Notes under the pieces: generated by a model
The model's input: only the letters and a program-made list of their open reading frames with translations
What the model was told of the DNA's origin: nothing
Database searches by the model: none
Part shown: positions 1,079 to 44,154 of the stretch, one piece after another
How positions within the stretch are numbered: the stretch's first letter is position 1
Layout of the letters: every line of letters begins with the position of its first letter
Source of the DNA: Acidobacteriota bacterium
GTDB lineage: Bacteria > Acidobacteriota > UBA6911 > JACQSX01
Assembly (NCBI GenBank): GCA_036507075.1
Contig: DASXQR010000097.1
Location: 1 to 64,000 of the forward strand
Direction of reading: 5' to 3'
DNA length: 64,000 bases
Position numbers and translations under genes: made by a program

Positions 1079-1507
1079 TTATGGGACGGTCAGTCCCTCG
1101 GTCCTGGCCAACTTTCCCTGGATGCGATCGAAGGTAAAAAACGCGTCCGCCCGCAACACCAAAGCCGAAGCAACATGGAGAATATCGAGGGTACGGGCGC
1201 CAATTTGCGGTGTTCGCTTCCGGGCAATCTGCTTGGCTTTCTCGAACACCGCGACGCCCCATGGTTGTAATACGAACACACCGGCATCGATATCCTTCTT
1301 AAGCAGCGCATTGGCAGCTTTGATTTTGGAAGGGAGAAGTTCCTTGCGAAAGAGGCGCTGCAAAATCGCATTGGTGAGCTCCAGTTCACCGAAAGGGGTC
1401 AGAAGTATGGGCAGGCTGGCTCGTTTCATTTGTGCAGCAGCGAGAGCGGAGTTTGCATCCAGAACGTACAACGAGACCAGAAAGCTCGGATCGGCGTATG
1501 AGCTCAA
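1079..1507 (-). CDS. vapC: type II TA toxin, VapC/PIN domain
   Basis: N-terminal 'YADPSFLVSLY' and C-terminal 'RTLDILHVASAL...FFTFDRIQ' PIN motifs; ATGA overlap with the upstream antitoxin. Confidence 0.85.
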   Translation of the reverse strand: MSSYADPSFLVSLYVLDANSALAAAQMKRASLPILLTPFGELELTNAILQRLFRKELLPSKIKAANALLKKDIDAGVFVLQPWGVAVFEKAKQIARKRTPQIGARTLDILHVASALVLRADAFFTFDRIQGKLARTEGLTVP

Positions 1508-1746
1508 TAGCGGCCTCGCTCGCGGGAGACAAGTTCCGCTCCCGTCACTTCTGCAGTCTTGCCGCCGTAGATTTTTTTCAAGCGCGCCAGGAAATCTGGA
1601 CGCCGAGAAGAAACCGGAGATTTCGCAGGGATCAGCCGAGCAATGATCCGTTTGCGCTTAGTGATCTGAATCTCTTCGCCTTCGCGGAGAAGATCCTCAA
1701 CTTCCGAAAATCGATAGCGGAGATCACGCACTGTAGCTTTTCTCAT
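1504..1746 (-). CDS. Phd/YefM-family (prevent-host-death) antitoxin
   Basis: MRKATVRDLRYRFSEVEDLLREGEEIQITKRKRIIARLIP; start reassigned to ATG at 1746. Confidence 0.85.
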   Translation of the reverse strand: MRKATVRDLRYRFSEVEDLLREGEEIQITKRKRIIARLIPAKSPVSSRRPDFLARLKKIYGGKTAEVTGAELVSRERGRY

Positions 1747-1783
1747 GTGATGCAATTTAGCATCACTTTGGCTTTCCAGGCAA
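1747..1783 (-). promoter_or_regulatory. probable leaderless sigma70 promoter with overlapping TA operator palindrome
   Basis: Minus strand reads TTGCCT-N18-TAAATT with TG extension, 7 nt before the ATG. Inverted repeat GTGATGC-N6-GCATCAC (1747..1766) straddles the -10 box. Confidence 0.6.
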
Positions 1784-1919
1784 GCCCCCAGCCGAGGCAG
1801 TGAGGTTCGATAAGCGTTAACGGCTCGCCGTCGCGGCCGCACATCTGAACCTGCCCCTCCCGTGGCGCGTCCCGAAGCACAGAGGGGTCAACATCCGCCA
1901 GAATCTGCTCGACCCTGGC

Positions 1920-1987
1920 ACAGCGCTTTGTTGCTCCGACAGATCAATGTACAAAGAATCGGTCTCTGGATAGTAATTCAGCTTCAT
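1920..1987 (-). pseudogene. truncated DUF2283-like antitoxin gene
   Basis: MKLNYYPETDSLYIDLSEQQSA, after which similarity is lost. Confidence 0.6.
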
Positions 1988-2225
1988 GGTTTAAGCCGCC
2001 GATCTAGAAATGCGTTATGAATAGTGACTTTATCATCCAGAGTATGACTCTCAAGAAACGTCCCTCATTTCGGGTAATTTCCGCCCAGAAACGGTAACGG
2101 TTTGTTTTTCTGCGGCTCTGATCGAATCGGATGCTCGAGGGCGCGGATGCACCACTCCATCTTCAGGTAGGGCCGCTGCGCAATACTTCCTTCTCGAAGT
2201 ATTCAGTGAACCGATAGCTTGCCAA
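1984..2225 (-). pseudogene. frameshifted small toxin-like partner of the DUF2283 gene
   Basis: Fragments in shifting frames: YRFTEYFEKEVLR / RPYLKMEW / NRYRFWAEI / DDKVTIHNAFLDRRLKP*. Confidence 0.55.
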
Positions 2226-2306
2226 GTTGAGAAAAAATATCGGAGCGGCAGTCGGGTCCCACAATCAGTCCGATCGGCTTGAACCCGGGCCTTCCTGATT
2301 TAATCT

Positions 2307-2396
2307 TCATGAGATTCGCCGACCAGTCGTGAACTGGTTGATTAAGTCAGTCGCCCCTCGGATGTCTTCCAGGAGCTTCTTCGTTTCAAGCTGCAT
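2307..2396 (-). pseudogene. truncated HEPN (DUF86-like) toxin gene
   Basis: MQLETKKLLEDIRGATDLINQFTTG stops after 29 aa; overlaps the end of the MNT gene as in MNT-DUF86 pairs. Confidence 0.6.
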
Positions 2397-2697
2397 AGAG
2401 CATCGTGCGGGTCTGGTTCACTTTTTCAAGAAAATAATGATTCCTAATCGCGCCGGCCACCACCAGGTCAACTGACCGGTCGAACAATTCCTGCAATGAC
2501 TCAAGCAGTCCGGAATACATATCCGCGTGTTGTCCCGATTGAAGGGCCAAGAATTCCACCAGAAAATCCAAATCACTCTGCTGCGCGTCAAACTGTCTGC
2601 CTTCGGCAGCCCAGCCAAACAGTTCAAACCGCTTAACCCGATACTTCCGGCAAAGTCGGCCGATCTGCTCGCGCTTCTGTTCAATGATCGGAATCAT
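2386..2697 (-). CDS. minimal nucleotidyltransferase (MNT) antitoxin, possibly degenerate
   Basis: 'LFGWAA...SDLDFLVEF...VDLV' motif; the canonical GS is GW here. Confidence 0.8.
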   Translation of the reverse strand: MIPIIEQKREQIGRLCRKYRVKRFELFGWAAEGRQFDAQQSDLDFLVEFLALQSGQHADMYSGLLESLQELFDRSVDLVVAGAIRNHYFLEKVNQTRTMLYAA

Positions 2698-2754
2698 TCG
2701 TTTGGTTCCCTCGGGCTATTATGAGACTGTTCATCGTGCTTCGTCGCGATGGTT

Positions 2755-2985
2755 TCACTTTGCTGCCAGTTCACGCGCGTGGGAAAGGTCGCGCCGGTTC
2801 ACGGGACGCAATTGAGGCAGCTGCACGGTAGTCACGGCCACCGTTTGACTGGTCAGTGTGACAAACTCAACCGCATAGGCTGCGCCGCCTTGATGAATGT
2901 GCACCACTGTACCCACATCACCGGCTCGCAACCCCTCGTCGGGAAGATGCTGCGTTAACACAATACAATCGTGTTCTTTGATCAT
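2755..2985 (-). CDS. DUF4926-family protein
   Basis: MIKEHDCIVLTQHLPDEGLRAGDVGTVVHIH...YAVEF; GGAGG RBS before ATG 2985. Confidence 0.8.
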   Translation of the reverse strand: MIKEHDCIVLTQHLPDEGLRAGDVGTVVHIHQGGAAYAVEFVTLTSQTVAVTTVQLPQLRPVNRRDLSHARELAAK

Positions 2986-3323
2986 AATTCCTCCACAGGA
3001 TACGCGGTGATGAGTCGCGGCGCAATCTGCCCTTTGTCCATCTGCCAGACCGTGCACACGAGCGGCTGGCGGCCATCCGGCACATAAGCTTGCCTTCCAC
3101 TTCATATCGGCGACCAAAACCGGTTTCTTTCAATTTGCTCACCTCATGCTGGCGGCCATGTTCGCGCAAGGCACGGGCCAGGATTGTCCACTCTTCCGGG
3201 CGACAGCCGAACTGCGCAAAGAACCGGGCCATGCTCGCGCCGAAACGATGCTGGCTGATTGAGCAGACACCTGATAATCTTGCCCTCCTCGACAACAGCT
3301 CCTTCAGCGTTTTGCACTCTCAT
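2982..3323 (-). pseudogene. frameshifted DUF6883-like gene (usual partner of DUF4926)
   Basis: MRVQNAEGAVVEEGKII..., ARFFAQFG...LARALREH...GRRYEVEG and VWQMDKGQIAPRLITAYP lie in different frames. Confidence 0.65.
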
Positions 3324-4157: not shown

Positions 4158-5312
4158 TTACCCGGGCGAAGTTGCTGGAGAGAAGTTTCGAACTTTCCCG
4201 ATCGTGATCCGCCGGGAGCGATAGACTTCGGCGACCCCGACAGCTGAAAGCAAGCGCCGATTTGGAGAGTCCTCTTGCAGTTCCTGATGAGCCAGGAGAG
4301 TTCGCACTACGTCGAGGGTGGCTGGCTCGCTCCAAATTGGCCACGTCCAATACGTGTCGAAACTCTTGCGTCCCCGGAAACCAGTGGTAGCAACGAACGA
4401 TGCTTGAGGTGCTGTTGGCAACAACGGAATTCCTTCGATCGCAAGGCGATTCGCTCCAAGTACGGTTCCTTGTTTCTTGCGGACGGGATCGCCGCTCGGG
4501 TTTCGCCAGCGGAGCGCGTAGCGGACGTCATCAATCGGGTCCCAGCGGAGTGTGAGATTTTCTACCGGGTCATCGTAGCACCAGAGCGAAAAGAGTGCCT
4601 TCTCGAGGTGGTTAGCTGTCGTGGCAAGGACAATGTTGCGCATGAACGCGAGGAAATGCTGGTGGCCCGCGCCAGCCATCGTTCGAAGCCCTGTATCCTG
4701 AATTCTGCCAGCTTCATCTGTAACAGCTTCGCACCCGAAAGCCGCCGCGAAATCGGCGATACTTCGGTCATCGTGGGAGGCCGCCTGGGAAGCAGTCGCG
4801 GCAAAGTGGGCGAAGTCTGGTGCGGAGAGAGTTAAGTCGTCAGCAATCAGCAGGTGCGGACAGGCGATCTGGAGCAAGCCGAGTCTTGCCTCCTCGATAG
4901 CTACCTCGAACGACAGGATCTGCTCAGGCAGCCTTTCCCGCAGACGTTGACCGGATAAGCGTTGCTTCTTCAGAGTTTTCTCCCGCTCCCTCTCGTCATT
5001 GCCTTGCTGTGCACAAGCGGCAATGAACTTCGCTTCCCACTGCTTGGCCTCCTGACGGCGGCCGCGAAAAGCTCCGTATCGACACGCAGTGGCGACTTCG
5101 TCGAGCAGTTCATTTGAACTGATTTCGGGCTCTAGAATCATTCTCGGCCGCCACGCTCCGCGGTGGGGCTGCCAGCACATCACGACTCGGTGCTCCGGCA
5201 AACTGAGCGACAGCAGGCGCAACGTTCCGAGCGAAGCTAGGAAGGCGAGTGGATTTCCTCCGTCTAATCCAATGAACAGTACGCCATCATGGTTTTCCTT
5301 GCTTGAATTCAT
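4158..5312 (-). CDS. csb3: type I-G Cascade large subunit, Csb3/Cas8u2-like
   Basis: 'GLDGGNPLAFLASLGTLR', 'LRWDP...RYALRW.NPS', 'GANRLAIEG.PL' and 'WPIW' motifs; ATGA-coupled to cas3. Confidence 0.85.
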   Translation of the reverse strand: MNSSKENHDGVLFIGLDGGNPLAFLASLGTLRLLSLSLPEHRVVMCWQPHRGAWRPRMILEPEISSNELLDEVATACRYGAFRGRRQEAKQWEAKFIAACAQQGNDEREREKTLKKQRLSGQRLRERLPEQILSFEVAIEEARLGLLQIACPHLLIADDLTLSAPDFAHFAATASQAASHDDRSIADFAAAFGCEAVTDEAGRIQDTGLRTMAGAGHQHFLAFMRNIVLATTANHLEKALFSLWCYDDPVENLTLRWDPIDDVRYALRWRNPSGDPVRKKQGTVLGANRLAIEGIPLLPTAPQASFVATTGFRGRKSFDTYWTWPIWSEPATLDVVRTLLAHQELQEDSPNRRLLSAVGVAEVYRSRRITIGKVRNFSPATSPG

Positions 5313-8300
5313 GCGACTGCTCCTTTGACGTGGGGATCACGCTGGGCAATGTTCTTTTCCGCTTCGTCTTCGCTTTGGCGGTGATCGGCCAACATGAATA
5401 TGGCTTCCAGCCAAGCCAAGCCCCACCAACCATACCGCCGAACAAGCCGCCAAAAGCGTTCGGCAGCGCCGCTACTGAGTCGGTGCGCCGGAATCCACCG
5501 TTCTCGATCGCTCTGACTGATGGAAAGCCCATCAAAGACACCGCGAAGATCGATCCCAGGGGCGCCTTCGTCGAGTACGACTTGCGCCAACGGCCGGCAA
5601 AATCCGTGGTGGCAAGCTATCACATGGAGAACAAGGTCGCGGTCAATGTCGTCTCCGGTAATCAGCTGGTTAAAATCCTGGACAATTTTGAGTGAAACTT
5701 GTTCGTGCCTGAATCCATCGGGCAATCCGCTTGCATCCCAGGCGTTGCTTCGTGCATCACGATCGTCCACGAGCCCTCCGGACTTGGCGTAGAGCATCGA
5801 TGCCAGAGCTGCGCGAAGTGTGTTCCCTCCGTGTAGAAAAGCTTGGAATCGCGGGTCGGCTTTGCCAAGGTCATGGAGATGTCCGGTTACCAACATGCTC
5901 TGGACGATACTATTGCCAAAACCGCACTGTCGTGCGAAATCGGCGGCACGCCGTGCAACGCCATCGCTGTGCGCCTTGAGTGAGATGTTAGTGGTCGCGG
6001 ATGCGCTATCATCTTCCGTTGTGTAGGTCTCGGGTTGCATGAACTCCAATCGGCGATCAACAGGCAGCCGCTGTGATCCACGAATGACCACTCCGCCGAA
6101 GGGATGCGGCAGCCACTTGGCACGTGTATCCTCGACCACTAGGGTAATCAATCGGCGCACGTGCTCGGCTATTTGTGCAGACGCAGCAATTCCGCGCAAC
6201 AAGTCGCGGATCTCACGACGCTCAAGCTCTGCTTCCGGATCGGACAGAAGCTTTAGCAATTCCGCGTGCTCGTCGGGTTCGGACAGCTCCGCAGTTTCGC
6301 GCCAGTTCTTCACCAAGACACGGTGGAGCCGGAGCATCGCGTGCCGCCGGGCCTCGACATAGCAGTGATCCGCAACGTCGATCTGTGCCACATCGGCGAT
6401 TCGGAGTGGAATGTGTCCAAAATCGTCCCAACCACGGAGACTGGCGGGCAATACGATGGTGTCACCAGGACGAAGGTTGTCCCCCTGGGCGTCGAGAAAC
6501 TCACTGTCCTCCGGGCCTCGCCAGAGGACGCCGAAGGCAATCGGTTCCGGCCTAGGGTGCAACTCGACTTCACCCTCGGTACTTCCCGCTTCGATATCCG
6601 CAATCGCGGCGTCACATCGAAACCCTTCCTCCGCAGAACGCCACCAGCGACGGAAAGCCCACAACGGCACGGGGAGGCATTCAAGCACGGTCGGGGGACA
6701 GAGCGAGACTGCTTCGACGGCTCGGCTTCGGAGGCGATCACGTAGACGGCTTTTTTCGACATCCGCCAGATCGTCTTTAACATCGACGCTGCCATGCTCG
6801 GGCAGGTCTGCTCGCCAGCATACTTGCACTTCGGGCGCGCCGCGCTGCGGCCCGTGCAGGAAAACCGCCAAGTTCGGATCAGGACGCGGAACAGGCGATG
6901 TCTGTACCCAACAATCGACGTGAGCAGGCAACAATACCGGGGCATCCGGAGAGGGCGGAACAAGCATCGAACGCTGCTCCGGTTCAACCTGAGCAACCAG
7001 CTGACTAATTGTCGTGATACCGAAGTCGATTTCTGGCTCTGATAGATCGAACCCGACAGCGTGTTCGGTGAGCCACTGCCATGTGTTAGGGATCGCTTGG
7101 CCGTAAACGGGATCCACCACCGCCGTGTCTTTCTGATCGGCGCGGATGACAATCGCGCCGCGAGCGTCGCAGTCGGTCCGTCCGATCCGGTTGAGCCGTC
7201 CGAAACGCTGCTGCAAGGCGTCGAGACTCGCACACTCACTCACCATGCCATCAAAATCCAAATTCGCCCCCACCTCGAGGCACTGCGTCGCAACAACAAT
7301 CGCGGGACGGGGTACCGCTGGTCGCTTGCTCGACGTTCCAAACCAGATGAGCAAACCGCGCGCTGAGTTGGGTGGGCTCGCATATGGCGCCCAGTTTTCC
7401 ATAAGCTCGTCGCGATCGATGGAGCGCATCCTGCCGGTCAGCAGGACAGCGTCAAACTCGCCTGGCAGCAGCGTGGCAAGCTGGCGGATGTGTCTCCAAT
7501 CGACGTCCGGGTCTGCGTCTCCTGGATCGCGGACAGCACAAAGTAACCGGTAGATCATGCGAGCGGTATAGACTCGGTTTACCAAAATGGCGATTCGCTG
7601 GCGTGAGTTAGAGACTAATTCGGCAGCTCGGACGACCAGTTCGGCCGTGAGTTCGTCGAGTGCCCGCTTTCCCTTTGCCTCTGTCGCCACGATTAGACGC
7701 GTTGGCTTGGACGAAGTCACGCGACGACGCAGCACTTCGCAGTCGCGCAAGTCCTCGCTCTTTTCGTTTACATCGAGCCGCAACACGTCGTTAATTCCAG
7801 GCGGCGGAGTCGCGGACATGATCGTGAAATGGAACGGCCCGCCGAGGTGCTCCCGTGCCCACCGCTCCCCACGGTAGCGTTCGACCGCCTGCATCGTCTG
7901 AAGGAATGGGTTCGCGCAATGAGCTTCATCAAGAATGATCAATGCATCGTTTCCTGCCAGACCTGCATGGATCGGCCATGCCTTGAACGATCGGCCATAA
8001 CCGCGAAACAGCAGACGCGAACCGATTTGATCGACCGTACTGGCAATCACACACGGCTGGGTGGGCGTGCGTGCCCATGCATCGTCGCGGTACATACCAC
8101 CGCGAAGCTGGTAGCAGGTGAGTGGCGGCGCATCGGTTGTCCCATTCACTTTCCGTAACGCCTGGGCGACTTCCCAAAGAATTCCGTTACTCGCAGCATC
8201 CAGTCGCTCGGCAAGATTCAAGGCGTGCTCGAAAGCCTCGTCAACAATGACGCGTCTATCAACGACGAAAAGAATGCGTCGCACCGCCGTGCGTTCCTGT

Positions 8301-8515
8301 AATGGCAGCTCGGCTTGGCAAGCCAAGGCAAAGACAGCGATATCCAGGCAGGAGGTCTTACCACTGCCGGTTGGCAAGGCTATAGCTTCCGGCCAGACGC
8401 GCTGAGGCGGACGCGCCGTGAGCACACGTTCCACGAGTCGTTCTTGCCAACGGAAGGGGTTGCAATCACTCACCGCGCGAAAGAACTCACCGAAGTCTCC
8501 GAGTCCGATGCTCAA
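5309..8515 (-). CDS. cas3: type I-G Cas3 helicase-nuclease with C-terminal HD domain
   Basis: Helicase motifs LPTGSGKT, DEAH, MSAT, VATQ.LEVG and QRFGRLNR; C-terminal HD motifs HSDGV, LHDLGK, RHE, CHHG and LADH. Start reassigned to TTG 8515 (GGAGGAGG RBS, TTGA overlap with csb2). Confidence 0.95.
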   Translation of the reverse strand: MSIGLGDFGEFFRAVSDCNPFRWQERLVERVLTARPPQRVWPEAIALPTGSGKTSCLDIAVFALACQAELPLQERTAVRRILFVVDRRVIVDEAFEHALNLAERLDAASNGILWEVAQALRKVNGTTDAPPLTCYQLRGGMYRDDAWARTPTQPCVIASTVDQIGSRLLFRGYGRSFKAWPIHAGLAGNDALIILDEAHCANPFLQTMQAVERYRGERWAREHLGGPFHFTIMSATPPPGINDVLRLDVNEKSEDLRDCEVLRRRVTSSKPTRLIVATEAKGKRALDELTAELVVRAAELVSNSRQRIAILVNRVYTARMIYRLLCAVRDPGDADPDVDWRHIRQLATLLPGEFDAVLLTGRMRSIDRDELMENWAPYASPPNSARGLLIWFGTSSKRPAVPRPAIVVATQCLEVGANLDFDGMVSECASLDALQQRFGRLNRIGRTDCDARGAIVIRADQKDTAVVDPVYGQAIPNTWQWLTEHAVGFDLSEPEIDFGITTISQLVAQVEPEQRSMLVPPSPDAPVLLPAHVDCWVQTSPVPRPDPNLAVFLHGPQRGAPEVQVCWRADLPEHGSVDVKDDLADVEKSRLRDRLRSRAVEAVSLCPPTVLECLPVPLWAFRRWWRSAEEGFRCDAAIADIEAGSTEGEVELHPRPEPIAFGVLWRGPEDSEFLDAQGDNLRPGDTIVLPASLRGWDDFGHIPLRIADVAQIDVADHCYVEARRHAMLRLHRVLVKNWRETAELSEPDEHAELLKLLSDPEAELERREIRDLLRGIAASAQIAEHVRRLITLVVEDTRAKWLPHPFGGVVIRGSQRLPVDRRLEFMQPETYTTEDDSASATTNISLKAHSDGVARRAADFARQCGFGNSIVQSMLVTGHLHDLGKADPRFQAFLHGGNTLRAALASMLYAKSGGLVDDRDARSNAWDASGLPDGFRHEQVSLKIVQDFNQLITGDDIDRDLVLHVIACHHGFCRPLAQVVLDEGAPGIDLRGVFDGLSISQSDRERWIPAHRLSSGAAERFWRLVRRYGWWGLAWLEAIFMLADHRQSEDEAEKNIAQRDPHVKGAVA

Positions 8516-9996
8516 GTCTCGTCCTCCTCCACGGCGAGCGGGCGACATAGGCCGTATCCGCGATACCGACCAGCCCCAAGCAATACCGGACCGTGTACGG
8601 CGCACGGAAAGGTGATGACTGCGTGGGTCTGCCGAATCATTCCGTCGTCGGTTTTGCGCTGGATGCGGGGCATCTGGCGAGTGTGTGGCGAACCGATGAA
8701 CATCGACACAGGAGCCGCAATCACATCTTGGGGTTGGGGCAAGCCGATCCGTTCACAGCCATCAGCGATGGATCTCTCTATTTGGGAATGTGGGTCGTCA
8801 AACTTCGCATGCCGATCGATTGCTATGGGCGTGACCGTTGCCCAACGCCGCGACGGCCCGGTCCAGGTCTCGCTCCGCAATGCGTGACGGTATGCCTGTC
8901 CCTCATCGAGTTCGAGCACGCACTGGCCAAGTTTGCCGAGCACCAGTCGGATTTGCTTAGGCCAGCCTGCATCATCGAAAAGAAAAGCACCAAGACATCG
9001 CGCGATCTCCGACTGTGTTATATCGGACGGCACCGCAACGGCGAGACCAAGCACGTGACCGTCGGCATGCTTACGACCGACATGCGGCAAAGGCACAAAC
9101 GCCAAGTGTCCGGCGGTTCTCTCACTGCGTTTTCCGTCAGCTTGGTGACCACTGACCCATTCCGGCGGCGGTTGCACTGGGGACATGGACATGATCGTGT
9201 CCCGCAGCGCCTTCGTGAGCAGCAGCGTGGATTCCAACCCGAATGACCGACCTTCAATCTGTCGCAGGATGATCAAGCTCTGCGCAAGATAGGGTGAGGG
9301 GATCTCCGTGCGGTCAGCTATCACCATTGCGGGCGAGTATCCCTGCCACACCGATCCAGCAGGGCGCAGACCCGCATCAAACCGCGACCTAAGTTGCGTG
9401 AGTCGGCCGGGGCAAAAGATCCTGAGGCGATGGCGCGACCCGTCGTCGTTCAAAGGCCGGAGGATTTGGCGATTATTCAGATTAGGCACGGTGGGGGGCA
9501 CTTCAAACTGGTCAGCCACCCACATCTGCACCATCGACGCCGAATGTCCAACCGCTGTCACCTTGCCGGCGAGGGACGCTAAAGCAGTTGACTGATCTGG
9601 CGATGGCTGTGCATCCCTCCAAAGTAGATGCACAACCGGATTGTCCGGGATTGCCACAGGAAACTGCCGCGGCTGCCGGTCGCGTCCGATGACCAGGGAA
9701 CCGGCTGACATGAGCGGTTTGTGTTTCTTGATGGGACTGGACGTGTCATTGACCGGGACGAAAGTCGTGACTGATTCGGGCGATCGGGCTGGCGACGCTA
9801 CAACGATCGGCGGCGACTGACGTTCGAGCCACTCAAGTGCGCCACGTTCTCGTTCATCTCCCTCGGTTTCAAAATGCGCCGCGGCCAAGGCCATGAAAAC
9901 GCGGTCCGGATGTGGCGGCCATTCCGCTTTCTCGCGATCCGCCGGGTGCGTCGCCATCGCCCAGCCGTTTAGGTAGTGAATGCCAATGCTAAACAT
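8512..9996 (-). CDS. csb2: type I-G Csb2 (Cas5-Cas6 fusion)
   Basis: 'EWPPHPDRVFMALAA', 'LPHVG...ADGHVLG', 'WATVTP' and the G-rich C-terminal 'GPVLLGAGRYRGYGLC' loop. Confidence 0.95.
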   Translation of the reverse strand: MFSIGIHYLNGWAMATHPADREKAEWPPHPDRVFMALAAAHFETEGDERERGALEWLERQSPPIVVASPARSPESVTTFVPVNDTSSPIKKHKPLMSAGSLVIGRDRQPRQFPVAIPDNPVVHLLWRDAQPSPDQSTALASLAGKVTAVGHSASMVQMWVADQFEVPPTVPNLNNRQILRPLNDDGSRHRLRIFCPGRLTQLRSRFDAGLRPAGSVWQGYSPAMVIADRTEIPSPYLAQSLIILRQIEGRSFGLESTLLLTKALRDTIMSMSPVQPPPEWVSGHQADGKRSERTAGHLAFVPLPHVGRKHADGHVLGLAVAVPSDITQSEIARCLGAFLFDDAGWPKQIRLVLGKLGQCVLELDEGQAYRHALRSETWTGPSRRWATVTPIAIDRHAKFDDPHSQIERSIADGCERIGLPQPQDVIAAPVSMFIGSPHTRQMPRIQRKTDDGMIRQTHAVITFPCAVHGPVLLGAGRYRGYGLCRPLAVEEDET

Positions 9997-11228
9997 TACT
10001 CCTCCCCGACAGCCTGGGAAGCCAGTTCCTGGCTCCTGCGAACCAACTCAATAAGCTGCGGCGACGGTGTGAGCACAAGTTCCTTCTCACGCCATGGCAA
10101 GCCTGCATCCTTCGCAGCTTGCAGCGCGTCGTTGAAAAGAGAAATGGCAGCGTTACCCGAAAGGTTGAACTTCGCCGGTTCTTCGCCTGGTTTATCCAGC
10201 AGTTCCCACATGACGGGCTCAGTGGGGACGAGCTGGCAACGCGATCGTAAATCGCAGCCTTGTTCCTCAGTAAGAGCCCCCGCGCAAAGTGCAAGCGCCG
10301 CCAGCGTGGCTCGTGCAGCAGCATCAATCTTTCCATCAGACTTGGCATCGCCATTCAGAGGAAATCGCAGGCGGCGGAGCGCTGGCAAGGACACAACGGT
10401 CGTTTGCACGGCATGACGGATGGTCACCCCACCATCGGCAATTGTGGGTGTTACATTGCCATGATTCGCCTCGGACGGTCGACCGTCTTTGCCAAGCTTG
10501 ACGGGCTCCTTCTTAGTCTTGCTTACAGTAGCGGCCTTTTCAGGATCGAGCGTCCATCCGATGCCATGTGTCTCGGCAGCCTTGTAGAGCGGGCCGGCGC
10601 TAAGTTGTATTTGCAGCGGGTCGATACGGCTGCTCGTCTTCTTCTCGATCTGTGCATCGATGCCAATGATTTCAGAAACCACCGCTCTCGCGAACTTGGC
10701 TCCGAGCCCTCCTTTTGGACCTGTCGAATCCCACATCCCAAACACGAGTGCAGTGGGACAGATTTCGAACAACGCTGTCGCATTCCGCCCATCGACGTTG
10801 TCCAACCGTTTGCCTAATTCACTTTTTCGGAACGGCTTTCCATCCATCAAGCTGTCGCGAATGATCGCGTCTGCGACGCGATGTGGCATTTCGAGGCTGG
10901 TAATCCGCAGTACTTTCTCAAGCTGATTGCCTTTGAAATCGACCGTGATCACAGGGAGTGAGATTTGGTCCGCTTCCCAGGCATCCAACAGGGCCAGCTC
11001 CATCCGATTTGCCTGCGACTGCACAGAATCGAGTAATACGCGATCCGCCTTTTTGGTTTCGCTGTCGACGCGCAACCCGACGGTGGCATATCTCCCGCCT
11101 TCATACGTTGGCGGAAAAATAGTGGACCCCTCACCTCCAGCTGGCTGCAATTTCGTTACAGAGCGAAATGCGGCAGCTGTTCCGCGAATGGCGTGCTGAA
11201 GCTTTTCCAGTGTCAAGCTGTCACTCAT
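9996..11228 (-). CDS. csb1: type I-G Cas7 backbone subunit Csb1
   Basis: 'LQPAGG...FPPTY', 'LLDSVQSQANRME', 'PHRVADA' and 'PTALVFGMWDS' motifs. Start reassigned to ATG 11228 (GAGGAGG RBS). Confidence 0.95.
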   Translation of the reverse strand: MSDSLTLEKLQHAIRGTAAAFRSVTKLQPAGGEGSTIFPPTYEGGRYATVGLRVDSETKKADRVLLDSVQSQANRMELALLDAWEADQISLPVITVDFKGNQLEKVLRITSLEMPHRVADAIIRDSLMDGKPFRKSELGKRLDNVDGRNATALFEICPTALVFGMWDSTGPKGGLGAKFARAVVSEIIGIDAQIEKKTSSRIDPLQIQLSAGPLYKAAETHGIGWTLDPEKAATVSKTKKEPVKLGKDGRPSEANHGNVTPTIADGGVTIRHAVQTTVVSLPALRRLRFPLNGDAKSDGKIDAAARATLAALALCAGALTEEQGCDLRSRCQLVPTEPVMWELLDKPGEEPAKFNLSGNAAISLFNDALQAAKDAGLPWREKELVLTPSPQLIELVRRSQELASQAVGEE

Positions 11229-11354
11229 TTTCTCCTCCTCTTCGAATTGTTCTTGGTATGTGAAAAGATAAAAGCCAATCGAAATAACCCTGAGCTCACC
11301 AAAAGTCTGCCATCCCAGAGTATGAGCTAGCGGCCCGTTTGCGGACATCCGGCC

Positions 11355-11906
11355 TCAGTCTTGAAGCTGCTGCTTTAGTCGCGTCCAAAATCGGGAATAC
11401 CACTGGCGCAATGTTTCGGGTCTTACTCGAAGGTTCTTTGAAAGCAGGTCATAACGTTCACCGTCGAGCAGGGCCAAAATGGCTTCCTGTCGTCGATGGG
11501 GAAGTCCGTTTAGCTCCCGCTGTGCTACTGCCGCAATTTCAGTGACCAGGACTGATCTTTCTGTGGCGTGCAGGCGTTCTGGCCGGAAAGAAACGTGCGG
11601 TCGTGCAAGAATGTCGAATGCGCGCGTCTCTTTGCACATCATGCTAGGCTGTCGTTCAATGACCGCAATTGCGTTCTTACAGCGATTGTTTTTTCGATAG
11701 TACTGAACGCGTACGCACTTCGCGATTTGACAGATTAGCCCCTCTTGATTCTCGGTCCAATCTATTGGGCTGAGCTGCGCGCTCCGTTTCTTGTCATAAA
11801 CTAGAACCTTCAGGCAGACGTCTTGATAAGCGTCATCGATGAACGTTCTGGTTATAAATGGAGGCACACGCAGTTTGAATCTCTCGAGTTGTTCAATCAT
11901 GTTCAT
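11355..11906 (-). CDS. divergent ECF-type (sigma70 group 4) RNA polymerase sigma factor
   Basis: 183 aa. Region-2-like 'DDAYQDVCLKV' and 'LICQIAKCVRVQYYRK'; region-4-like HTH 'LNGLPHRRQEAILALLDGERYDLLSKNLRVRPETLRQWYSRFWTRLKQQL'. Confidence 0.75.
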   Translation of the reverse strand: MNMIEQLERFKLRVPPFITRTFIDDAYQDVCLKVLVYDKKRSAQLSPIDWTENQEGLICQIAKCVRVQYYRKNNRCKNAIAVIERQPSMMCKETRAFDILARPHVSFRPERLHATERSVLVTEIAAVAQRELNGLPHRRQEAILALLDGERYDLLSKNLRVRPETLRQWYSRFWTRLKQQLQD

Positions 11907-11950
11907 ATCTGATTAATCGCCGGCACGATCAATTTGTGACACCTTTCTTT

Positions 11951-11971
11951 AAAACTTGCCCATTCAATAAA
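11951..11971 (-). promoter_or_regulatory. self-target (partial protospacer plus TTT PAM) of the mini-array spacer
   Basis: Minus strand reads TTT-ATTGAATGGGCAAGTTTT; the spacer 5' end reads ATTGATTGGGCAAGTTTT (17/18 identical). Confidence 0.85.
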
Positions 11972-11979
11972 GTTTATAG

Positions 11980-12007
11980 TTGACTTCATGGACGGCGATG
12001 TTACGCT
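11980..12007 (+). promoter_or_regulatory. probable sigma70 promoter of the mini-array
   Basis: TTGACT-N16-TACGCT with TG extension, ~25 nt upstream of repeat 1. Confidence 0.55.
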
Positions 12008-12032
12008 GACAGGCTGATAGGAAGCAACGAAT

Positions 12033-12142
12033 TCCGTTCCAGGATCTTTTTCCTGGCCCCATTGAAGCATTGATTGGGCAAGTTTTTTTGGATCACCAGC
12101 ATGAACAATCCGCGGTCATCAAGACCGCGGCCCCATTGAAGT
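12033..12142 (+). CRISPR. CRISPR mini-array: two non-identical type I-G-like repeats and one 38-nt spacer
   Basis: R1 12033..12068 TCCGTTCCAGGATCTTTTTCCTGGCCCCATTGAAGC (stem CCAGGA/TCCTGG); spacer 12069..12106; R2 12107..12142 AATCCGCGGTCATCAAGACCGCGGCCCCATTGAAGT (stem CCGCGGTC/GACCGCGG). Both end in GGCCCCATTGAAG, typical of I-G repeats. Confidence 0.85.
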
Positions 12143-12649: not shown

Positions 12650-12960
12650 GCACCCCTGCGCGCCAAAAGTTGGCGCGGCCACACGGCTGGTATGCTTCCG
12701 CCCTGTCGCTTACATGCAGCTTCAACCGCAAGTGCCCGCAGTCTGGTAACAAATCCCCGCGCCCGTGCGGGCCGAAGTCCAAATTTACGAGGGAAAGGGG
12801 GCTGTAAGCTCGAATTCTAAGACGTTACAGGCCGCAATCAAGCTTTATTGGAAATTGCAAAACTGGTTAACAACAAAGGCACAAAGGTATCCCGGGTCAA
12901 CTCTGTGCCGTTATTGGCTAGCGCGGTTGAGTTCGTTCCATGTCTGCAACCTTATCAACT
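12650..12960. repeat. copy A of a ~310-bp dispersed direct repeat containing a minus-strand promoter and operator
   Basis: Aligns with 15904..16223; shared core TCGAATTCTAAGACGTTACAGGC.GCAATCAAGCTTTATTGGAAATTGCAAAACTG. Confidence 0.9.
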
Positions 12961-13070
12961 TAATGTGGCGTTTTAATTCCGGCTGGGTTGTTGCTCCTCC
13001 CTATTGGTAACGGTCCAATCTGCCAGCCACAGCAGCGTATAATGTGGTTGGGAACCTTCTTGGCGACCAT

Positions 13071-14333
13071 ATGGAACAATTTGCCATTCTGCAGCGCCGC
13101 AAGACGCGGTGCCAGTACGGAATTGTTGCCGGCGCTGCCTTCCTCTTTGTGTCTCTGCCGATCCGATTCATTCCCGGATTAAATGACAAACTGTGCGGCC
13201 CGCCCCGATATATGCAGGCGGTTGCCACCGTAATGGCCCGACAACTCGCCGCCGCCACCCAGGGTCAGTATCCGGTGCTCGTAGCTGCGCGCGAAGAATC
13301 CGATTGCCGGGCCGTGAACCTGCCCGAGGCAGACGATTACGACGATCAATATTTTGTGATCCGCTATTCCGAGAAAGCGCGCCTTCTCTGTTTGGATGGT
13401 TATGCAAAAGGGGTGCGGTCTTCCAAATCACCCACGGCCGCTACTCTGAATCCCGATATCGGCCGCAACTTCGGCCGCGCTTTAACCGCTCCGGTAAGGG
13501 TGATCTTGTCGTATCGCAAGCCATCGGTTCTTCCACAGGATTATCTCTCGCTGTTGCACTGGCGAACCAAAGCCAACCCTTTGTCTGCCGCCAGTGGCGG
13601 TGTGTCCCACCTGCTTACTTCGCCTGGGGGCGGGGCGGTGGCCAATCTTTCGGTGAACTACGTCGATCTTCGCGCAGAGGTGGCGAAGCGACACAATTGG
13701 ATCAACCGCCTGTTACTCTTTATCATCCTGTCGGGAGTTGGCGCCGTCTTGGCTTCGCTGGCAACACTGAGGCTGCTCTATTCCGAGTGCGCCCAATCAT
13801 TGCGCGGCTATGATTTCTCTCTGTCCATGAATCTCTTTCTAAGTGAGAACTTGAATAAAGTTGGAGAGCTGGCGCAAAACCGTTATCACGAGTACCGGCA
13901 ACACCTGCAGACACAGGCGCGGCTCGATCATTTCTACCGGCGGGAGAAGCAAGAGGTGCAGAGGCATTTGAAGGCTTTGTTAGCCGCCGCGAGCGATGAT
14001 GAGCGGCGCCTTTTGATTCAAAAGACGCTGGACAGTGGCGGCCTCGAAGAGATGCATGCGCTGCTTGACCATCTCCAGCCCCAGACGAGGGAGAAGCTTC
14101 CCGAGGAGCGCTTGCGTCTACTGCTGGAAGCCATTAAGGAATACTGCACCGAGAGCGAGTTTCAGGATTGCCAAAATGAGGTCCTGAAAGTCTTTCACCG
14201 CTCGGGATTCAGAGAAGCCCGGGAAATTATTGTTCGGCGGCATGACGAGCTGCGAGCGCGATCGAAGGCTCTAAAAGAAGACGAGGAAGACCAACAAGTC
14301 CGCCAAGTCTTCCAGCGGCATTCTTCGCCTTAG
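13071..14333 (+). CDS. hypothetical membrane protein (two hydrophobic helices, helical cytoplasmic C-terminus)
   Basis: Long ORF with TM-like 'GIVAGAAFLFVSLPI' and 'LLLFIILSGVGAVLASLATL'; TATAAT at 13038. Confidence 0.7.
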   Translation: MEQFAILQRRKTRCQYGIVAGAAFLFVSLPIRFIPGLNDKLCGPPRYMQAVATVMARQLAAATQGQYPVLVAAREESDCRAVNLPEADDYDDQYFVIRYSEKARLLCLDGYAKGVRSSKSPTAATLNPDIGRNFGRALTAPVRVILSYRKPSVLPQDYLSLLHWRTKANPLSAASGGVSHLLTSPGGGAVANLSVNYVDLRAEVAKRHNWINRLLLFIILSGVGAVLASLATLRLLYSECAQSLRGYDFSLSMNLFLSENLNKVGELAQNRYHEYRQHLQTQARLDHFYRREKQEVQRHLKALLAAASDDERRLLIQKTLDSGGLEEMHALLDHLQPQTREKLPEERLRLLLEAIKEYCTESEFQDCQNEVLKVFHRSGFREAREIIVRRHDELRARSKALKEDEEDQQVRQVFQRHSSP

Positions 14334-15006: not shown

Positions 15007-15429
15007 TTAACCTGGTCGCTTTGCACGTTGAAACTTGCTACTCACCAGGCCGACAATGGCCTGGGCCGCATCGACGGCCCGGCCTCCTTGCTCCTGGGTA
15101 TAAGACTGAAACGGGACGGCAGGGGGAGCAAGGGCATCCGGGTAACGAGTGGGGATATAGTATTGATCCAGGATCCGGCCTGGCCCAATATGCGTCGAAA
15201 AATCACTGTCCATCTGCGAGCACATCTCAGCCAATTGCGCCACCGAGTGAATCGGAACAGAGCGATGACCCGCCCCAACCAGAAACCCCTTCAAGGCCTT
15301 CTGGCTTGACTGCTCGGCCATAAAACAAGCGTCGGAGTAGTCCCCTCGCTCTTGATGGTTGCGGGCCACCACCAGGTCATGCTCAGCCTGGAGCAGCCAG
15401 CGCAAGCCCACTTCATGTCTCGGCTTCAT
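15007..15429 (-). CDS. HEPN domain protein (MNT-HEPN toxin)
   Basis: 'WLLQAEHDL...ACFMAEQSSQKALKG...HS...LDQYYIPTRYPD'. Confidence 0.9.
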   Translation of the reverse strand: MKPRHEVGLRWLLQAEHDLVVARNHQERGDYSDACFMAEQSSQKALKGFLVGAGHRSVPIHSVAQLAEMCSQMDSDFSTHIGPGRILDQYYIPTRYPDALAPPAVPFQSYTQEQGGRAVDAAQAIVGLVSSKFQRAKRPG

Positions 15430-15482
15430 AGACCGTCTTCCCGTTCAACCCACCGAATCAGACCACATCTTCCACGAGCGCT

Positions 15483-15797
15483 TCACCGCTCAGCTTCATA
15501 CACCACTTTCCCGTCGCGGAGCGCCTCGGTAATGAAAGCGTTGTCCTCCTGCAGCATTGCTTCAATCTCTTGCGGAGTGTAGACCAGGATATCGGCTCGA
15601 ACGCCGGCAGGGCACAGACGAGCCATTGCCTCGAGCCTGGCGACAAAAGGCTCCTGCGTCTCCTTGATCACCAATAGATCGAAATCGCTGGCGGCATCAG
15701 CGTCGCCACGGGCAGCAGAACCAAACAGGATGATCCGCTGCGGACGATAAGGCCGAAGCGCCTCCAATAAGGCATCAAGAGATGCGTTCATGGACAA
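15483..15797 (-). CDS. minimal nucleotidyltransferase (MNT) antitoxin
   Basis: 'ILFGSAARGDADAASDFDLLVI...DILVYTPQE'. Confidence 0.9.
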   Translation of the reverse strand: MSMNASLDALLEALRPYRPQRIILFGSAARGDADAASDFDLLVIKETQEPFVARLEAMARLCPAGVRADILVYTPQEIEAMLQEDNAFITEALRDGKVVYEAER

Positions 15798-15903: not shown

Positions 15904-16223
15904 GCACCGCTGAGAGGCGAGAGTTCGCGCGACCAGACAGCTGGCATGCTTCCGCCCTGTCATTTACAGCCAGCTTCAGACGCAAGTGGCTGCAATCCGG
16001 TGAACAAGTCCCCGCGCCCGTGCAGGCCGAAGTCCAAATTTACGAGCTAAGAGGGGCTGTAAGATCGAATTCTAAGACGTTACAGGCGGCAATCAAGCTT
16101 TATTGGAAATTGCAAAACTGATTAACCACAAAGACACAAAGGGCACAAAGGTGTCCGGGTTAACTCTGCGCCGTTAGTGGCTCGGATGGCCCACTTGTTT
16201 CCCGGTTTGCGACCTCATCAACT
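15904..16223. repeat. copy B of the ~310-bp direct repeat
   Basis: Aligns with 12650..12960; lies directly upstream of the MNT-HEPN pair on the minus strand. Confidence 0.9.
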
Positions 16224-16789: not shown

Positions 16790-17845
16790 TCAGCGCTCGA
16801 CATTTTTGCGGGCGTAAGACCGCCCTCCCGCGGCACGTTCGACCGGGCGGCTCGGTTTTTTTGCCGGAGGGGTCCGATAGAGCGAGGCTGCCAGGAGACA
16901 TTGCTCCGAGACAAGATTTCGCAGCGATGCCGGCTCAAGCACCTGCGCCTGTGCGCCGAAACTCAAGATCCATTTCTGGAGATCGACCCCGGGATGGACA
17001 TGCATCGTGAGCTCAACACCCAAAGGTCTAACCGTCAGGGTCTGTGAGGGATGCCACTGGTGCTCACTGACCAGAACTGCGGCCTTGCCGGTAAACCGAA
17101 TTCGCACCTGCTCTGGTTCACCCTGCCAGATTTCAAAACTCGCTTCGAACGCAGCCTGAGGCGATGTCCCCGCGGGCACAAAAGTTTGATCCGTGGCACG
17201 CAAGTCGCGAATGCGGCTGATGTGGAAGGTCCGCATTCCTCGCCGCTCGTGACAGAACCCCCAGATGTACAGATTCGGATGGGCCGTGATAATCGCATAA
17301 GGGTCGACAAGCCTCCGTCGAACTTCGCCGGTGTTGAGGGCCTGGTAGACAATTTCAGTCGTTTTGTGATTTATGATCGCGTCACCGACCTGCTCATCAA
17401 TATAGCGGGGACTGAGCGCCGGGTGAATGTTTCTTGGTCCGGTAATAAGGATTGCAGCCTCTGCCTGCTGCAGAAAGTCACGCTTCTTGTCGGTCAGCCC
17501 CGCGAACATTTTTCCGCACAGCGATCGCAGGGCTGCGGCTCCAGGGAGCTGCTGCTGCTGCGCAGTGATGTTTGCAGAATGGAGCGCCATCAACTCATGT
17601 GCGTCCAAAGGCATCGGCAGCGAGGTGCGACCGTCAAGAAACCATACCACCTGCTTGCCGCGCATTTCGGAGTAAATCTGAAACCCGGCATCTTCCAGTG
17701 CAATGACATCACGTTGGATCGTCCGCAACGCGGGGACGACGTCCGGTTCAAGGGTTTGCATTAGATCGGAGTACGTCGCTCCGTAACGCAATTCAGCCAA
17801 GCGACGCAGAATCTTCCATTGTCGGATTAGCTGCCGATTTCGCAC
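16790..17845 (-). CDS. HTH-WYL-WCX transcriptional regulator
   Basis: N-terminal wHTH 'RTIQRDVIALEDAGF', WYL 'RLVDPY...LYIWGFCHERRGMRTFHISRI', C-terminal 'WILSFGAQAQVLEPASLR'. Confidence 0.92.
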   Translation of the reverse strand: MRNRQLIRQWKILRRLAELRYGATYSDLMQTLEPDVVPALRTIQRDVIALEDAGFQIYSEMRGKQVVWFLDGRTSLPMPLDAHELMALHSANITAQQQQLPGAAALRSLCGKMFAGLTDKKRDFLQQAEAAILITGPRNIHPALSPRYIDEQVGDAIINHKTTEIVYQALNTGEVRRRLVDPYAIITAHPNLYIWGFCHERRGMRTFHISRIRDLRATDQTFVPAGTSPQAAFEASFEIWQGEPEQVRIRFTGKAAVLVSEHQWHPSQTLTVRPLGVELTMHVHPGVDLQKWILSFGAQAQVLEPASLRNLVSEQCLLAASLYRTPPAKKPSRPVERAAGGRSYARKNVER

Positions 17846-18085
17846 GGGCTACTCCCTTCTGGTGCGGCCATTGACGGTTTACCGCTCACTGTTACGTTAT
17901 AAGAGAGACTGGATTGTAACGTTCGCCAGGGAAGAATTCAATGCAACGGAAACTGCGCTTTCCTCTGGAAATCATTCATTCCCAAATTGAAACCATCCGG
18001 TTGGTAAAGCTCAGCCACGACGTGGGCCGGTAAGAATCTCCTGCCAAAACAGAAGGCCCATTTGTCAGGCCGCCAAGATGCTGGC

Positions 18086-18355
18086 ACACTCGTGCTGTAT
18101 GAGTGGTTGCGAGGCCCTTGGCTCGAAGAGGAGCTGCTGGATCAGCAGGGCCTTTTCCCTGACGAATCAATTACACCCTTTGGCCGAGAGGAAGCTGCCA
18201 TCGCCGCAGGACTGCACCGACGCATTCGGCGCCCGCGGGGACGTGAACTTGACGTTGCAATCGCGGCTTGTGCAATTGCACAGAACGCTGTGCTGTGGAC
18301 GCTGAATGTGCGGGATTTCGAAGACATCCCGGGACTACAAGGTGTCGAAACCTGA
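18086..18355 (+). pseudogene. 5'-truncated VapC/PIN toxin
   Basis: 'VLYEWLRGP...DVAIAACAI...LWTLNVRDFEDIPGL'; the N-terminal catalytic D(T/S) strand is missing and no antitoxin is seen. Confidence 0.7.
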
Positions 18356-20934: not shown

Positions 20935-21055
20935 GACAGGGACTGAGGGACTGAGAGACTGAGGGACTGAGAGACTGATTCCGTTCCCTCCGTCCCTCCA
21001 TCTCTCCATCTCTCCATCTCTCCATCTCTCCATCTCCCAGTCTCTCAGTCCCTCA
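20935..21055. repeat. palindromic element with 8-nt tandem units (GACTGAGG / CCATCTCT); related copy at 62492..62697
   Basis: Visible tandem 8-mers forming inverted arms. Confidence 0.85.
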
Positions 21056-21118
21056 ATCATTAATTTGGGTCTGTGCCCCACTTAAACGGATAATAGGTTC
21101 ATTTGTCTGGGAGGGTGA

Positions 21119-30495: not shown

Positions 30496-31218
30496 CTAAG
30501 TCGTGGCTGAAGCGGGGTTGACGTGGGTATACAGAGCGGCGGGCCTTTCCGGCTGCAGGTCGATTACCTTGCCGTCGAGCAAGTGAATAGACCGGGCCGC
30601 GCGCGCCGCCAGTTCCGGATCATGCGTCACCATGATGATGGTGGTGCCCTCCTGATTGATCTTCTCCATCAGGTCCATGATCTCGCGCGCCATCAGCGAG
30701 TCCAGGTTGCCGGTCGGTTCGTCGGCCAGGATAAGCCTCGGCCTTCCGACCAGCGCCCGGGCAATGGCCACGCGCTGCTGCTGGCCTCCGGAAAGCTGCG
30801 ACGGGTAATGCTTCATGCGGGAGACAAGACCCACTATTGACAGTGCCTGTTCAATGGCACTCTTGCGCTCCGCCTTATTCTTGCGGCTGTAGCGCAGCGG
30901 AACATCGATGTTGTCGTAGACGTTCAGGTCGGGAATCAGGTTGAAGGTTTGGAAAATGAACCCGATCTTCTGGTTGCGAATGCGCGACATCTCTCCATCG
31001 CTCAAACGCGAGACATCTGCTCCGTCCAGGTGGTAGGTCCCGTTCTCAAACGTGTCGAGCAAGCCGGCGACGTTCAAAAACGTGGTTTTGCCGCAGCCGG
31101 AAGGCCCCATGATCGAGATGAACTCTCCGGATTCGACTTCCAGATCAAACTCACTCAGGGCGTGGGTCTCGATCATGTCAGTCCGGTAGATCTTGCTGAC
31201 TTTGGCCATCTTTAACAT
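30496..31218 (-). CDS. ABC transporter ATP-binding protein (LolD/MacB-like)
   Basis: [16 protein letters not shown] and [17 protein letters not shown] before ATG 31218. Confidence 0.95.
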
Positions 31219-43989: not shown

Positions 43990-44153
<164 letters not shown>

Positions 44154-44154
44154 C

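What the first reader, a model, noticed from the sequence alone, without database searches (positions are those of the whole stretch)
4158..12142. Type I-G Cascade-Cas3 operon headed by an ECF sigma factor and wired to a self-targeting mini-array
Seen: csb1-csb2-cas3-csb3 are translationally coupled and intact. An ECF-like sigma gene sits 126 bp upstream on the same strand, with no anti-sigma gene beside it. The only CRISPR spacer in the window points at the region just upstream of that sigma gene. Established: ECF sigmas are usually held in check by anti-sigma factors; repeat-like guide RNAs (CreA/CreR, scaRNA) make Cas effectors repress promoters; dCas12f-sigmaE systems couple a Cas protein to a sigma for RNA-guided transcription. 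Inference: Cascade plus guide may replace the anti-sigma. In one model, loss or Acr inhibition of Cascade derepresses the sigma, which switches on cas genes or a wider defence regulon. In the alternative model, bound Cascade recruits the sigma for guided activation. I do not know of a described class 1 / ECF-sigma circuit of this kind, but cannot verify novelty here.
Basis: partly seen in the sequence, partly recalled or inferred. Interest (0 to 1): 0.93.

Follow-up and report, generated by a model that had tools for sequence, protein, structure and literature searches.

The report
CRISPR-silenced sigma factor heading cas operon
This bacterial CRISPR system appears to use a small built-in guide RNA to keep its own promoter switched down, and the first gene under that promoter is a transcription factor of the sigma type, so disabling the CRISPR machinery would be expected to switch on a second response.

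Summary
An intact type I-G operon (csb1-csb2-cas3-cas8g) is headed by a divergent ECF-type sigma gene. A divergent two-repeat mini-array matches the sigma upstream region at 17 of 18 seed bases. The one mismatch is at position 6, the PAM is TTT, and the target is unique in the genome.

The layout recurs. 13 of 128 related I-G loci carry a sigma-like gene in this slot, and 11 of the 13 have a guide aimed 40-115 nt upstream of it, against 31 of 115 sigma-less loci. A further case with a different operon order was found by a search that did not use csb1.

The guide circuit is therefore CreR-type autorepression, already noted for I-U, and it does not need the sigma. The new part is the recurrent sigma cargo, almost always under guide control, with no anti-sigma found in this window. 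Guided activation (dCas12f-sigmaE style) is disfavoured: targets lie on both strands at variable distance, and the sigmas do not co-vary with Csb1. Most likely, Cascade loss or inhibition releases the sigma. Whether it then drives a regulon or acts as a toxic decoy is untested. Verdict: new variant of a known kind.

The parts
4158..5312 (-). cas8g (csb3), large subunit
   Evidence: PADLOC Cas8g E 1.5e-87; NF049934 E 4e-71; ATGA overlap with cas3
5309..8515 (-). cas3g, helicase plus C-terminal HD nuclease, catalytic motifs intact
   Evidence: TIGR02621 E 3.5e-206; motifs located; TTG start overlapping the csb2 stop
8512..9996 (-). csb2 (Cas5-Cas6 fusion, crRNA processing)
   Evidence: TIGR02165 E 2.6e-87
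9996..11228 (-). csb1 / cas7g backbone
   Evidence: TIGR02570, PF09617
11355..11906 (-). divergent ECF-type sigma factor gene (181-183 aa, sigma2 + sigma4), first gene of the operon
   Evidence: leave-one-out E 8.4e-15; pLDDT 80.6 with alignment; best hits all ECF sigmas; no close homologue
11951..11968 (-). protospacer matched by the guide seed (17 of 18, mismatch at position 6)
   Evidence: unique in the genome
11969..11971 (-). PAM TTT (I-G uses TTN)
   Evidence: TTN PAM stated in 10.1101/2022.08.08.503147 (passage)
11980..12007 (+). candidate promoter of the mini-array (TTGACT-16-TACGCT), 8 of 12 consensus, below the scan threshold
   Evidence: read by eye; not reported by the scan; inference only
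12031..12068 (+). degenerate repeat 1: 6-bp hairpin, 4 nt, 8-nt handle
   Evidence: fold z -2.0; same geometry as Csb2 cleavage; 18 of 36 identical to the C193 repeat
12069..12106 (+). 38-nt spacer (regulatory guide)
12107..12142 (+). repeat 2: 8-bp hairpin, 4 nt, 8-nt handle
   Evidence: fold z -4.3; 22 of 36 identical to the C193 repeat

Best explanation
Csb2 processes the mini-array into a crRNA-like guide (inferred from repeat geometry). Cascade uses the guide to bind the TTT-flanked site 62-68 nt upstream of the sigma gene. Only 18 of 38 bases pair, so it binds without licensing Cas3 (inferred from CreR/CreA precedent) and holds down the promoter of the sigma-csb1-csb2-cas3-cas8g unit. 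When Cascade is diluted by competing crRNAs, lost, or blocked by an anti-CRISPR, the promoter opens. More Cas is then made and, first in the transcript, an ECF-type sigma with no neighbouring anti-sigma. The sigma binds core RNA polymerase and redirects transcription to its own promoters, as a second-line defence output. Shown here: the anatomy, the sigma fold, the guide-target match and the recurrence. Inferred: repression, co-transcription, sigma activity and its targets.
For: Seed, PAM and position-6 mismatch. Both repeats fold with the Csb2 cleavage geometry. 43 related loci have guide-target pairs with different sequences, and with no PAM rule 32 of 37 best matches still carry TTN. Mismatches concentrate at positions 6/12/18 (86 of 129) against 25 of 430 at positions that are not multiples of three. 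11 of 13 sigma loci have a guide against 31 of 115 sigma-less loci (Fisher p 8e-5, kin not independent). Sigma loci are scattered on the Csb1 tree (12 changes for 13 loci). An additional locus found through a different gene has guide + target + sigma before a cas3-first operon. In several sigma loci the target covers or abuts a sigma70-like promoter (L043, L086, L105, L136). Two near-orthologue pairs keep sigma4 (52 of 55, 50 of 55) better than the linker (13 of 28, 27 of 37), which suggests purifying selection.
Against: No promoter for the sigma gene, no Shine-Dalgarno and no sigma-specific promoter motif could be identified in this window. The family is very divergent (median 23% identity; 24% where Csb1 is 87%). 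It has mostly lost the region 2.3 tryptophan (2 of 14 against 24 of 31 ordinary ECFs, alignment-dependent), which fits a decoy or decaying protein as well. 115 of 128 loci lack the sigma, so it is dispensable. An anti-sigma encoded elsewhere is not excluded; the genome has about 30 other sigma-type hits.
Confidence: 0.45

Rival explanations
1. The circuit is the same, but the sigma-like protein is a CRISPR-repressed toxin of the CreT/CreP type. It occupies core RNA polymerase without productive initiation and arrests growth when Cascade fails (addiction or abortive infection).
For: Near-obligate guide control (11 of 13). The core-binding D-x-x-Q motif is often kept (D 9 of 13, Q 7 of 13) while the region 2.3 W is mostly lost. 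Rapid turnover and patchy distribution like other cargo. The slot also holds other small orphan ORFs. Precedent: CreP (passages).
Against: The sigma4 recognition helix is conserved within orthologue pairs, and T/R of region 4.2 across the family (12 of 14, 14 of 14). Two sigma loci (L038, L125) have no detectable target.
Confidence: 0.25
2. Ordinary CreR autorepression of the cas operon. The sigma gene is a passenger that landed in a shuffling hotspot behind the cas promoter and has no role in defence.
For: 31 of 115 sigma-less loci have the same guide geometry. Shmakov et al. describe this slot in I-D loci as a hotspot with TA and regulator cargo (section 24). The sigmas are barely alignable to each other.
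Against: Sigma-like genes occupy the same slot in 14 of 191 loci plus L201, across distant Csb1 branches. In 7 of these they travel with the same clade of a 68-aa gene. The ORFs are intact and the domain-wise conservation suggests selection.
Confidence: 0.2
3. Cascade bound at the target recruits the sigma and RNA polymerase for RNA-guided activation, as dCas12f-sigmaE does.
For: Sigma, effector and guide are adjacent. The window lacks a consensus sigma70 promoter near the target. In dCas12f systems guides can target their own locus (passage).
Against: Targets lie on the sense strand in 7 and the antisense strand in 4 of 11 sigma loci, 40-115 nt from the start codon, whereas dCas12f-sigmaE starts a fixed 46 bp from the TAM and co-evolves with its sigma (passages). 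Sigma identity does not follow Csb1 identity. Cas3 is catalytically intact. The guide has no target outside the locus, and the same geometry occurs without any sigma.
Confidence: 0.05
4. The mini-array is a dead remnant and the match is incidental.
For: Repeat 1 is degenerate (18 of 36 to the main repeat), and expression was not observed.
Against: Chance expectation 1e-4, correct PAM, position-6 mismatch and preserved hairpin-handle geometry; 43 parallel cases.
Confidence: 0.03

Closest known systems
CreR / crlRNA mini-array autorepression (Liu et al., 10.1101/2023.03.10.532045; Shmakov et al., 10.1101/2023.03.03.530964)
   Same: Degenerate two-repeat mini-array, partial seed match with PAM, target at the head of the cas operon, position-6 mismatch. 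Liu et al. mention creA-like elements in I-U (passage). Shmakov et al. describe cargo genes, including transcriptional regulators, in I-D loci (section 24).
   Different: Subtype I-G was not tested in the passages seen, and the word sigma does not occur in either main text. Here the cargo is a recurrent ECF-type sigma.
CreTA / CrePA and CRISPR-supervised immune systems (10.1101/2024.01.05.574328; 10.1101/2024.12.27.630466)
   Same: Cascade-guide repression of a gene inside or beside the cas operon, released by anti-CRISPR action (passages).
   Different: The known cargo is an RNA toxin, a cell-division toxin or a defence system in I-B, I-C or I-F. The cargo here is a transcription initiation factor, and its toxicity is untested.
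CASP-sigma/Csx30 (III-E, PMC10028731), CalpL-CalpT-CalpS (III-B), DdvS/DdvA (PMC6061681)
   Same: An ECF sigma tied to a class 1 CRISPR locus. CASP-sigma motifs lie before cas1, and DdvS drives a cas cluster.
   Different: All three are held by a protein anti-sigma and released by proteolysis or a membrane signal. Here no anti-sigma or protease lies beside the sigma in the window, and the control appears to be transcriptional and RNA-guided.
dCas12f-sigmaE RNA-guided transcription (PMC12259090)
   Same: Sigma gene beside an RNA-guided effector and its guide.
   Different: That system is class 2 and nuclease-dead, has a co-evolving sigma and a fixed TAM-to-start distance, and has distant targets. 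None of these holds here.

Membership tests
Type I-G CRISPR-Cas | cas7g (csb1), csb2, cas8g, cas3 with C-terminal HD domain; TTN PAM | tested here: met
CreR / crlRNA autorepression | Mini-array of repeats related to the system's own repeat, processable | tested here: met
   geometry matches Csb2 cleavage
CreR / crlRNA autorepression | Partial PAM-proximal match with cognate PAM upstream of the cas operon | tested here: met
   17 of 18 with TTT; 20 of 38 overall
CreR / crlRNA autorepression | Target overlaps or abuts the promoter | tested here: inconclusive
   no consensus promoter in the window; overlap seen in several relatives
CreR / crlRNA autorepression | Cascade- and guide-dependent repression without cleavage | not testable with these tools
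   needs a reporter assay
ECF (group 4) sigma factor | sigma2 and sigma4 domains only, about 20 kDa | tested here: met
   The model was built with an alignment holding 31 ordinary ECFs, so it leans towards that fold; the single-sequence model failed
ECF (group 4) sigma factor | Reaches a curated family cut-off | tested here: not met
   TIGR02937 21.5 bits against cut-off 42.9; no Sigma70_r2 or r4 hit; 6 of 13 slot relatives pass a Sigma70_r4 or r4_2 cut-off
ECF (group 4) sigma factor | Co-encoded anti-sigma | tested here: not met
   The neighbours are csb1 and the mini-array. The 68-aa companion gene of some relatives is absent from this genome (best E 0.42), and the membrane ORF at 13044-14333 was not found in 191 loci
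ECF (group 4) sigma factor | Binds core RNAP and initiates at its own promoters | not testable with these tools
   needs ChIP or in vitro transcription
CreTA / CrePA toxin module | Repressed gene is toxic on derepression | not testable with these tools
   needs an expression test
dCas12f-sigmaE-like guided activation | Nuclease-dead effector | tested here: not met
   Cas3 motifs intact
dCas12f-sigmaE-like guided activation | Fixed strand and distance of target to the activated start; sigma co-evolves with effector | tested here: not met
   7 sense and 4 antisense, 40-115 nt to the start codon (start sites of transcription not known)

The most novel reading that the evidence does not exclude
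An RNA-guided substitute for an anti-sigma factor. In a recurrent subset of type I-G loci, Cascade loaded with a dedicated guide is the only off-switch of an ECF sigma. Anti-CRISPR action or Cascade loss is thereby converted into a sigma-driven transcriptional programme (cas re-expression, other defence genes or dormancy). The extreme divergence of these sigmas would give each locus its own private promoter code.
Probability: 0.4. Interest if true: 0.8.

Novelty: new variant of a known kind. Interest (0 to 1): 0.62.

Why it matters
Known CRISPR-repressed cargo genes are toxins or defence enzymes, and known CRISPR-linked sigmas are gated by protein anti-sigmas. A sigma gated by Cascade itself would join these two themes. 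It would let a cell turn the failure of its immune effector into a broad transcriptional response, and it offers a ready reporter for I-G anti-CRISPRs. The survey also shows that guide-based self-regulation is common in this I-G clade (42 of 128 loci), and it yields natural target-pairing rules for the I-G Cascade.

Tried and rejected
Direct homologue searches with the window's sigma found only itself (1 of 87 candidates; itself and one unrelated HTH-repeat protein), so recurrence had to be shown through csb1 neighbourhoods. A single-protein locus scan with Csb1 found nothing. Single-sequence folding failed (pLDDT 41).

A co-folding job for the L078 sigma with its 68-aa neighbour gave no answer (score 0.00). 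It is not used for or against binding. No RNA holder was listed for the region; this too is no evidence. The alignment of the 68-aa gene was too variable for a viral scan, so its presence in viruses is open.

No shared DNA motif between the sigma upstream region or the sigma-csb1 gap and the rest of the genome was found by short-word BLAST. The membrane ORF 13044-14333 was considered as an anti-sigma and set aside: it is on the opposite strand, about 1.1 kb away, and absent from 191 loci. Four profile hits were dropped as not in the slot: L155 and a second L043 hit (opposite strand, 1.7-5 kb away), L191 (3 kb away) and L091 (1.5 kb away, weak, looks like a PAS-LuxR protein by eye). A second phylum sample gave 7 further csb1 loci, none with a sigma and 2 with a guide pair. 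Earlier scan findings held nothing relevant.
Full report
Observation. The window holds a complete type I-G interference operon on the minus strand: csb1/cas7g, csb2, cas3g and cas8g. Stop and start codons overlap at all three junctions, and Cas3 keeps its helicase and HD motifs. ORF 11355-11906 ends 126 bp before csb1. A two-repeat mini-array at 12031-12142 points away from it. Both repeats fold into a hairpin followed by 4 nt and an 8-nt handle, which is the cleavage geometry reported for Csb2 (10.1101/2022.08.08.503147, passages). The first 18 spacer bases match 11968-11951 at 17 positions. The mismatch is at position 6 and the PAM is TTT, fitting the TTN PAM stated in the same paper; 20 of 38 bases match overall. 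The expected chance count is about 1e-4 for the window, and the site is unique in the genome. The genome has only this I-G operon and an ordinary array with a related repeat at the end of contig C193. No cas1 was found in the 95.7%-complete assembly.

The sigma. The protein is an orphan by direct search and falls under all curated cut-offs (TIGR02937 E 1.4e-4). Three lines place it among ECF sigmas. ESM Atlas neighbours score 0.96-0.98. A profile of other csb1-upstream proteins built without it scores it at E 8.4e-15. An alignment-based model (pLDDT 80.6) has ECF sigmas as its best Foldseek hits (E. coli sigmaE 6jbq_F, E 8.9e-4, probability 1.0). That model used an alignment containing 31 ordinary ECFs and so leans that way; the single-sequence model failed.

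Recurrence. I collected 191 loci around Csb1 relatives. I kept 128 that have at least 1 kb upstream, Csb1 at 240 bits or more and no cas8g upstream; 8 duplicates were among those dropped. Sigma-like genes in the slot before csb1 were seeded by eye and extended by profile search. There are 14 such loci including the window, 13 of them eligible; L137 has too little flank. A guide-target pair was called when at least 14 of 20 seed bases matched next to TTN, above 20 shuffles, within 1.5 kb upstream. This rule was set after looking at the data. Pairs were found in 42 of 128 loci: 11 of 13 sigma loci (10 of 12 without the window) and 31 of 115 others (Fisher p 8e-5; kin are not independent). As a control, with no PAM rule, 37 of 87 spacers followed by a second repeat had a match of at least 15 of 20, and 32 of those 37 carried TTN. 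L038 has a mini-array but no detected target, and L125 has only a degenerate repeat. The sigma loci are scattered over the Csb1 tree (127 leaves; 12 changes for 13 loci, shuffled mean 12.5). Named hosts are mostly Planctomycetota. One locus in the tally and tree, L002, comes from an unpublished genome (G049). It counts as one sigma-less, guide-less row and no claim depends on it.

Independent case and companion gene. A 68-aa gene sits in the same slot in 13 of 191 loci, 6 with a sigma directly before it and 7 without. The sigma-linked copies share a distinct sequence signature. Searching 401 genomes with this gene gave 5 hits. One new hit, L201, has mini-array, TTC-flanked target, sigma-like gene (E 1.4e-13), small gene and then a cas3-first operon. 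This case was not found through csb1 and has the other gene order. The small gene has no Pfam or PADLOC match, has unnamed Planctomycetota neighbours in the Atlas, and is absent from the window's genome.

Mechanism. The circuit reads as repression. Targets lie on either strand (7 sense, 4 antisense in sigma loci) at 40-115 nt from the start codon. They often cover the -10 region or abut the -35 of a sigma70-like promoter: 11 of 25 well-scoring promoters have their -10 within the footprint zone, against about 24% expected, and a second group has the -35 just past the paired seed (matrices recalled). The same geometry exists without any sigma. dCas12f-sigmaE, by contrast, has a fixed 46-bp TAM-to-start distance and co-evolves with its sigma (PMC12259090, passages). 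Here sigma identity is 23% at the median and 24% between loci whose Csb1 is 87% identical. In the window itself no consensus promoter or Shine-Dalgarno is evident, so promoter overlap is not shown for this locus.

What the sigma does is open. For function: the ORFs are intact, the slot is conserved, the sigma is nearly always coupled to a guide, and two near-orthologue pairs conserve sigma4 (52 of 55; 50 of 55) and sigma2 (72 of 80; 57 of 75), with the linker at 13 of 28 and 27 of 37. The second pair's contrast between sigma2 and linker is small. For a decoy or decay: the divergence is extreme and the region 2.3 tryptophan is mostly lost (2 of 14 against 24 of 31; region labels recalled). I put 0.45 on a working sigma released on Cascade failure, 0.25 on a toxic core-binding decoy, 0.20 on a passenger, 0.05 on guided activation and 0.03 on a dead remnant.

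Comparison with print. Liu et al. (10.1101/2023.03.10.532045, passages) show CreR autorepression for I-B, I-E and V-A and mention creA-like elements in I-U (their Fig. S7, not seen). Shmakov et al. (10.1101/2023.03.03.530964, passages and sections 22 and 24) describe mini-arrays and cargo, including regulators in I-D. The terms I-G, I-U and sigma do not occur in their main text, but their Table 1 is an image and their supplements were closed. CreP (10.1101/2024.01.05.574328, passages) and CRISPR-supervised defence systems (10.1101/2024.12.27.630466, passages) are the closest cargo precedents. 10.1101/2024.10.29.618823 gave zero counts for I-G, I-U and sigma. ECF sigmas in class 1 loci are known with anti-sigmas: CASP-sigma (PMC10028731, passages), DdvS (PMC6061681, abstract) and CalpS (search listing). 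Searches listed no paper on a guide-repressed sigma in a type I locus. The library lacks most subscription papers, and unseen supplements of the two 2023 surveys could show such loci.

Verdict. The feature is real and recurrent. It is a new variant of crRNA-like promoter regulation whose cargo is a sigma-type protein. Interest 0.62.

Noticed in passing
43 guide-target pairs, L001-L184: Besides positions 6/12/18 (86 of 129 mismatched), positions 3/9/15 are mismatched more often (34 of 129) than other seed positions (25 of 430; p 1e-9). A three-base periodicity was reported for I-E Cascade binding (recalled, paper not held).
   Followed up: partly
L078:3477-3680, L141:4711-4914, L105:4705-4911 and 10 more loci; L204: Conserved unnamed 68-aa gene in the guide-repressed slot before csb1, with or without the sigma. 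The same domain occurs inside a longer protein in L204 that looks by eye like a GIY-YIG nuclease beside a DNA methylase. Candidate toxin, DNA-binding protein or anti-sigma.
   Followed up: partly
L041, L045, L059 (Dehalococcoidia), about 290-40 nt before csb1: A second small (about 58 aa) conserved ORF lies between guide target and csb1.
   Followed up: no
600 nt upstream of csb1 in L009, L038, L081, L088, L091, L101, L105, L119, L140, L176: Perfect TGAC-N7-GTCA palindrome in 10 of 128 loci against 0 in an equal stretch inside csb1; possibly an operator of the WYL regulators that often precede csb1. Not present at the window's operon.
   Followed up: partly
window 1079-3295, 15007-15797, 16790-17845, 18062-18355: The operon sits among PIN/Phd, nucleotidyltransferase, DUF4926/DUF6883, HEPN-MNT and WYL genes: a toxin-antitoxin-rich defence neighbourhood.
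   Followed up: partly
window 12668-12887 and 15922-16142: A 220-nt segment is duplicated at 88% identity on either side of ORF 13044-14333; no coding identity found.
   Followed up: partly
G000:C193 about 30690-31120: Ordinary I-G-type array running off the contig end, with one truncated repeat-spacer unit; no cas gene beside it in the assembled part.
   Followed up: partly
L010, L032, L038, L091, L112, L151, L170: Short N-terminal fragments of a different cas3-like helicase lie directly before csb1, suggesting remodelling of an older cas3-first operon.
   Followed up: no
window 20969-21082, 44088-44162, 62466-62723: Octamer tandem repeats, some in inverted pairs.
   Followed up: no
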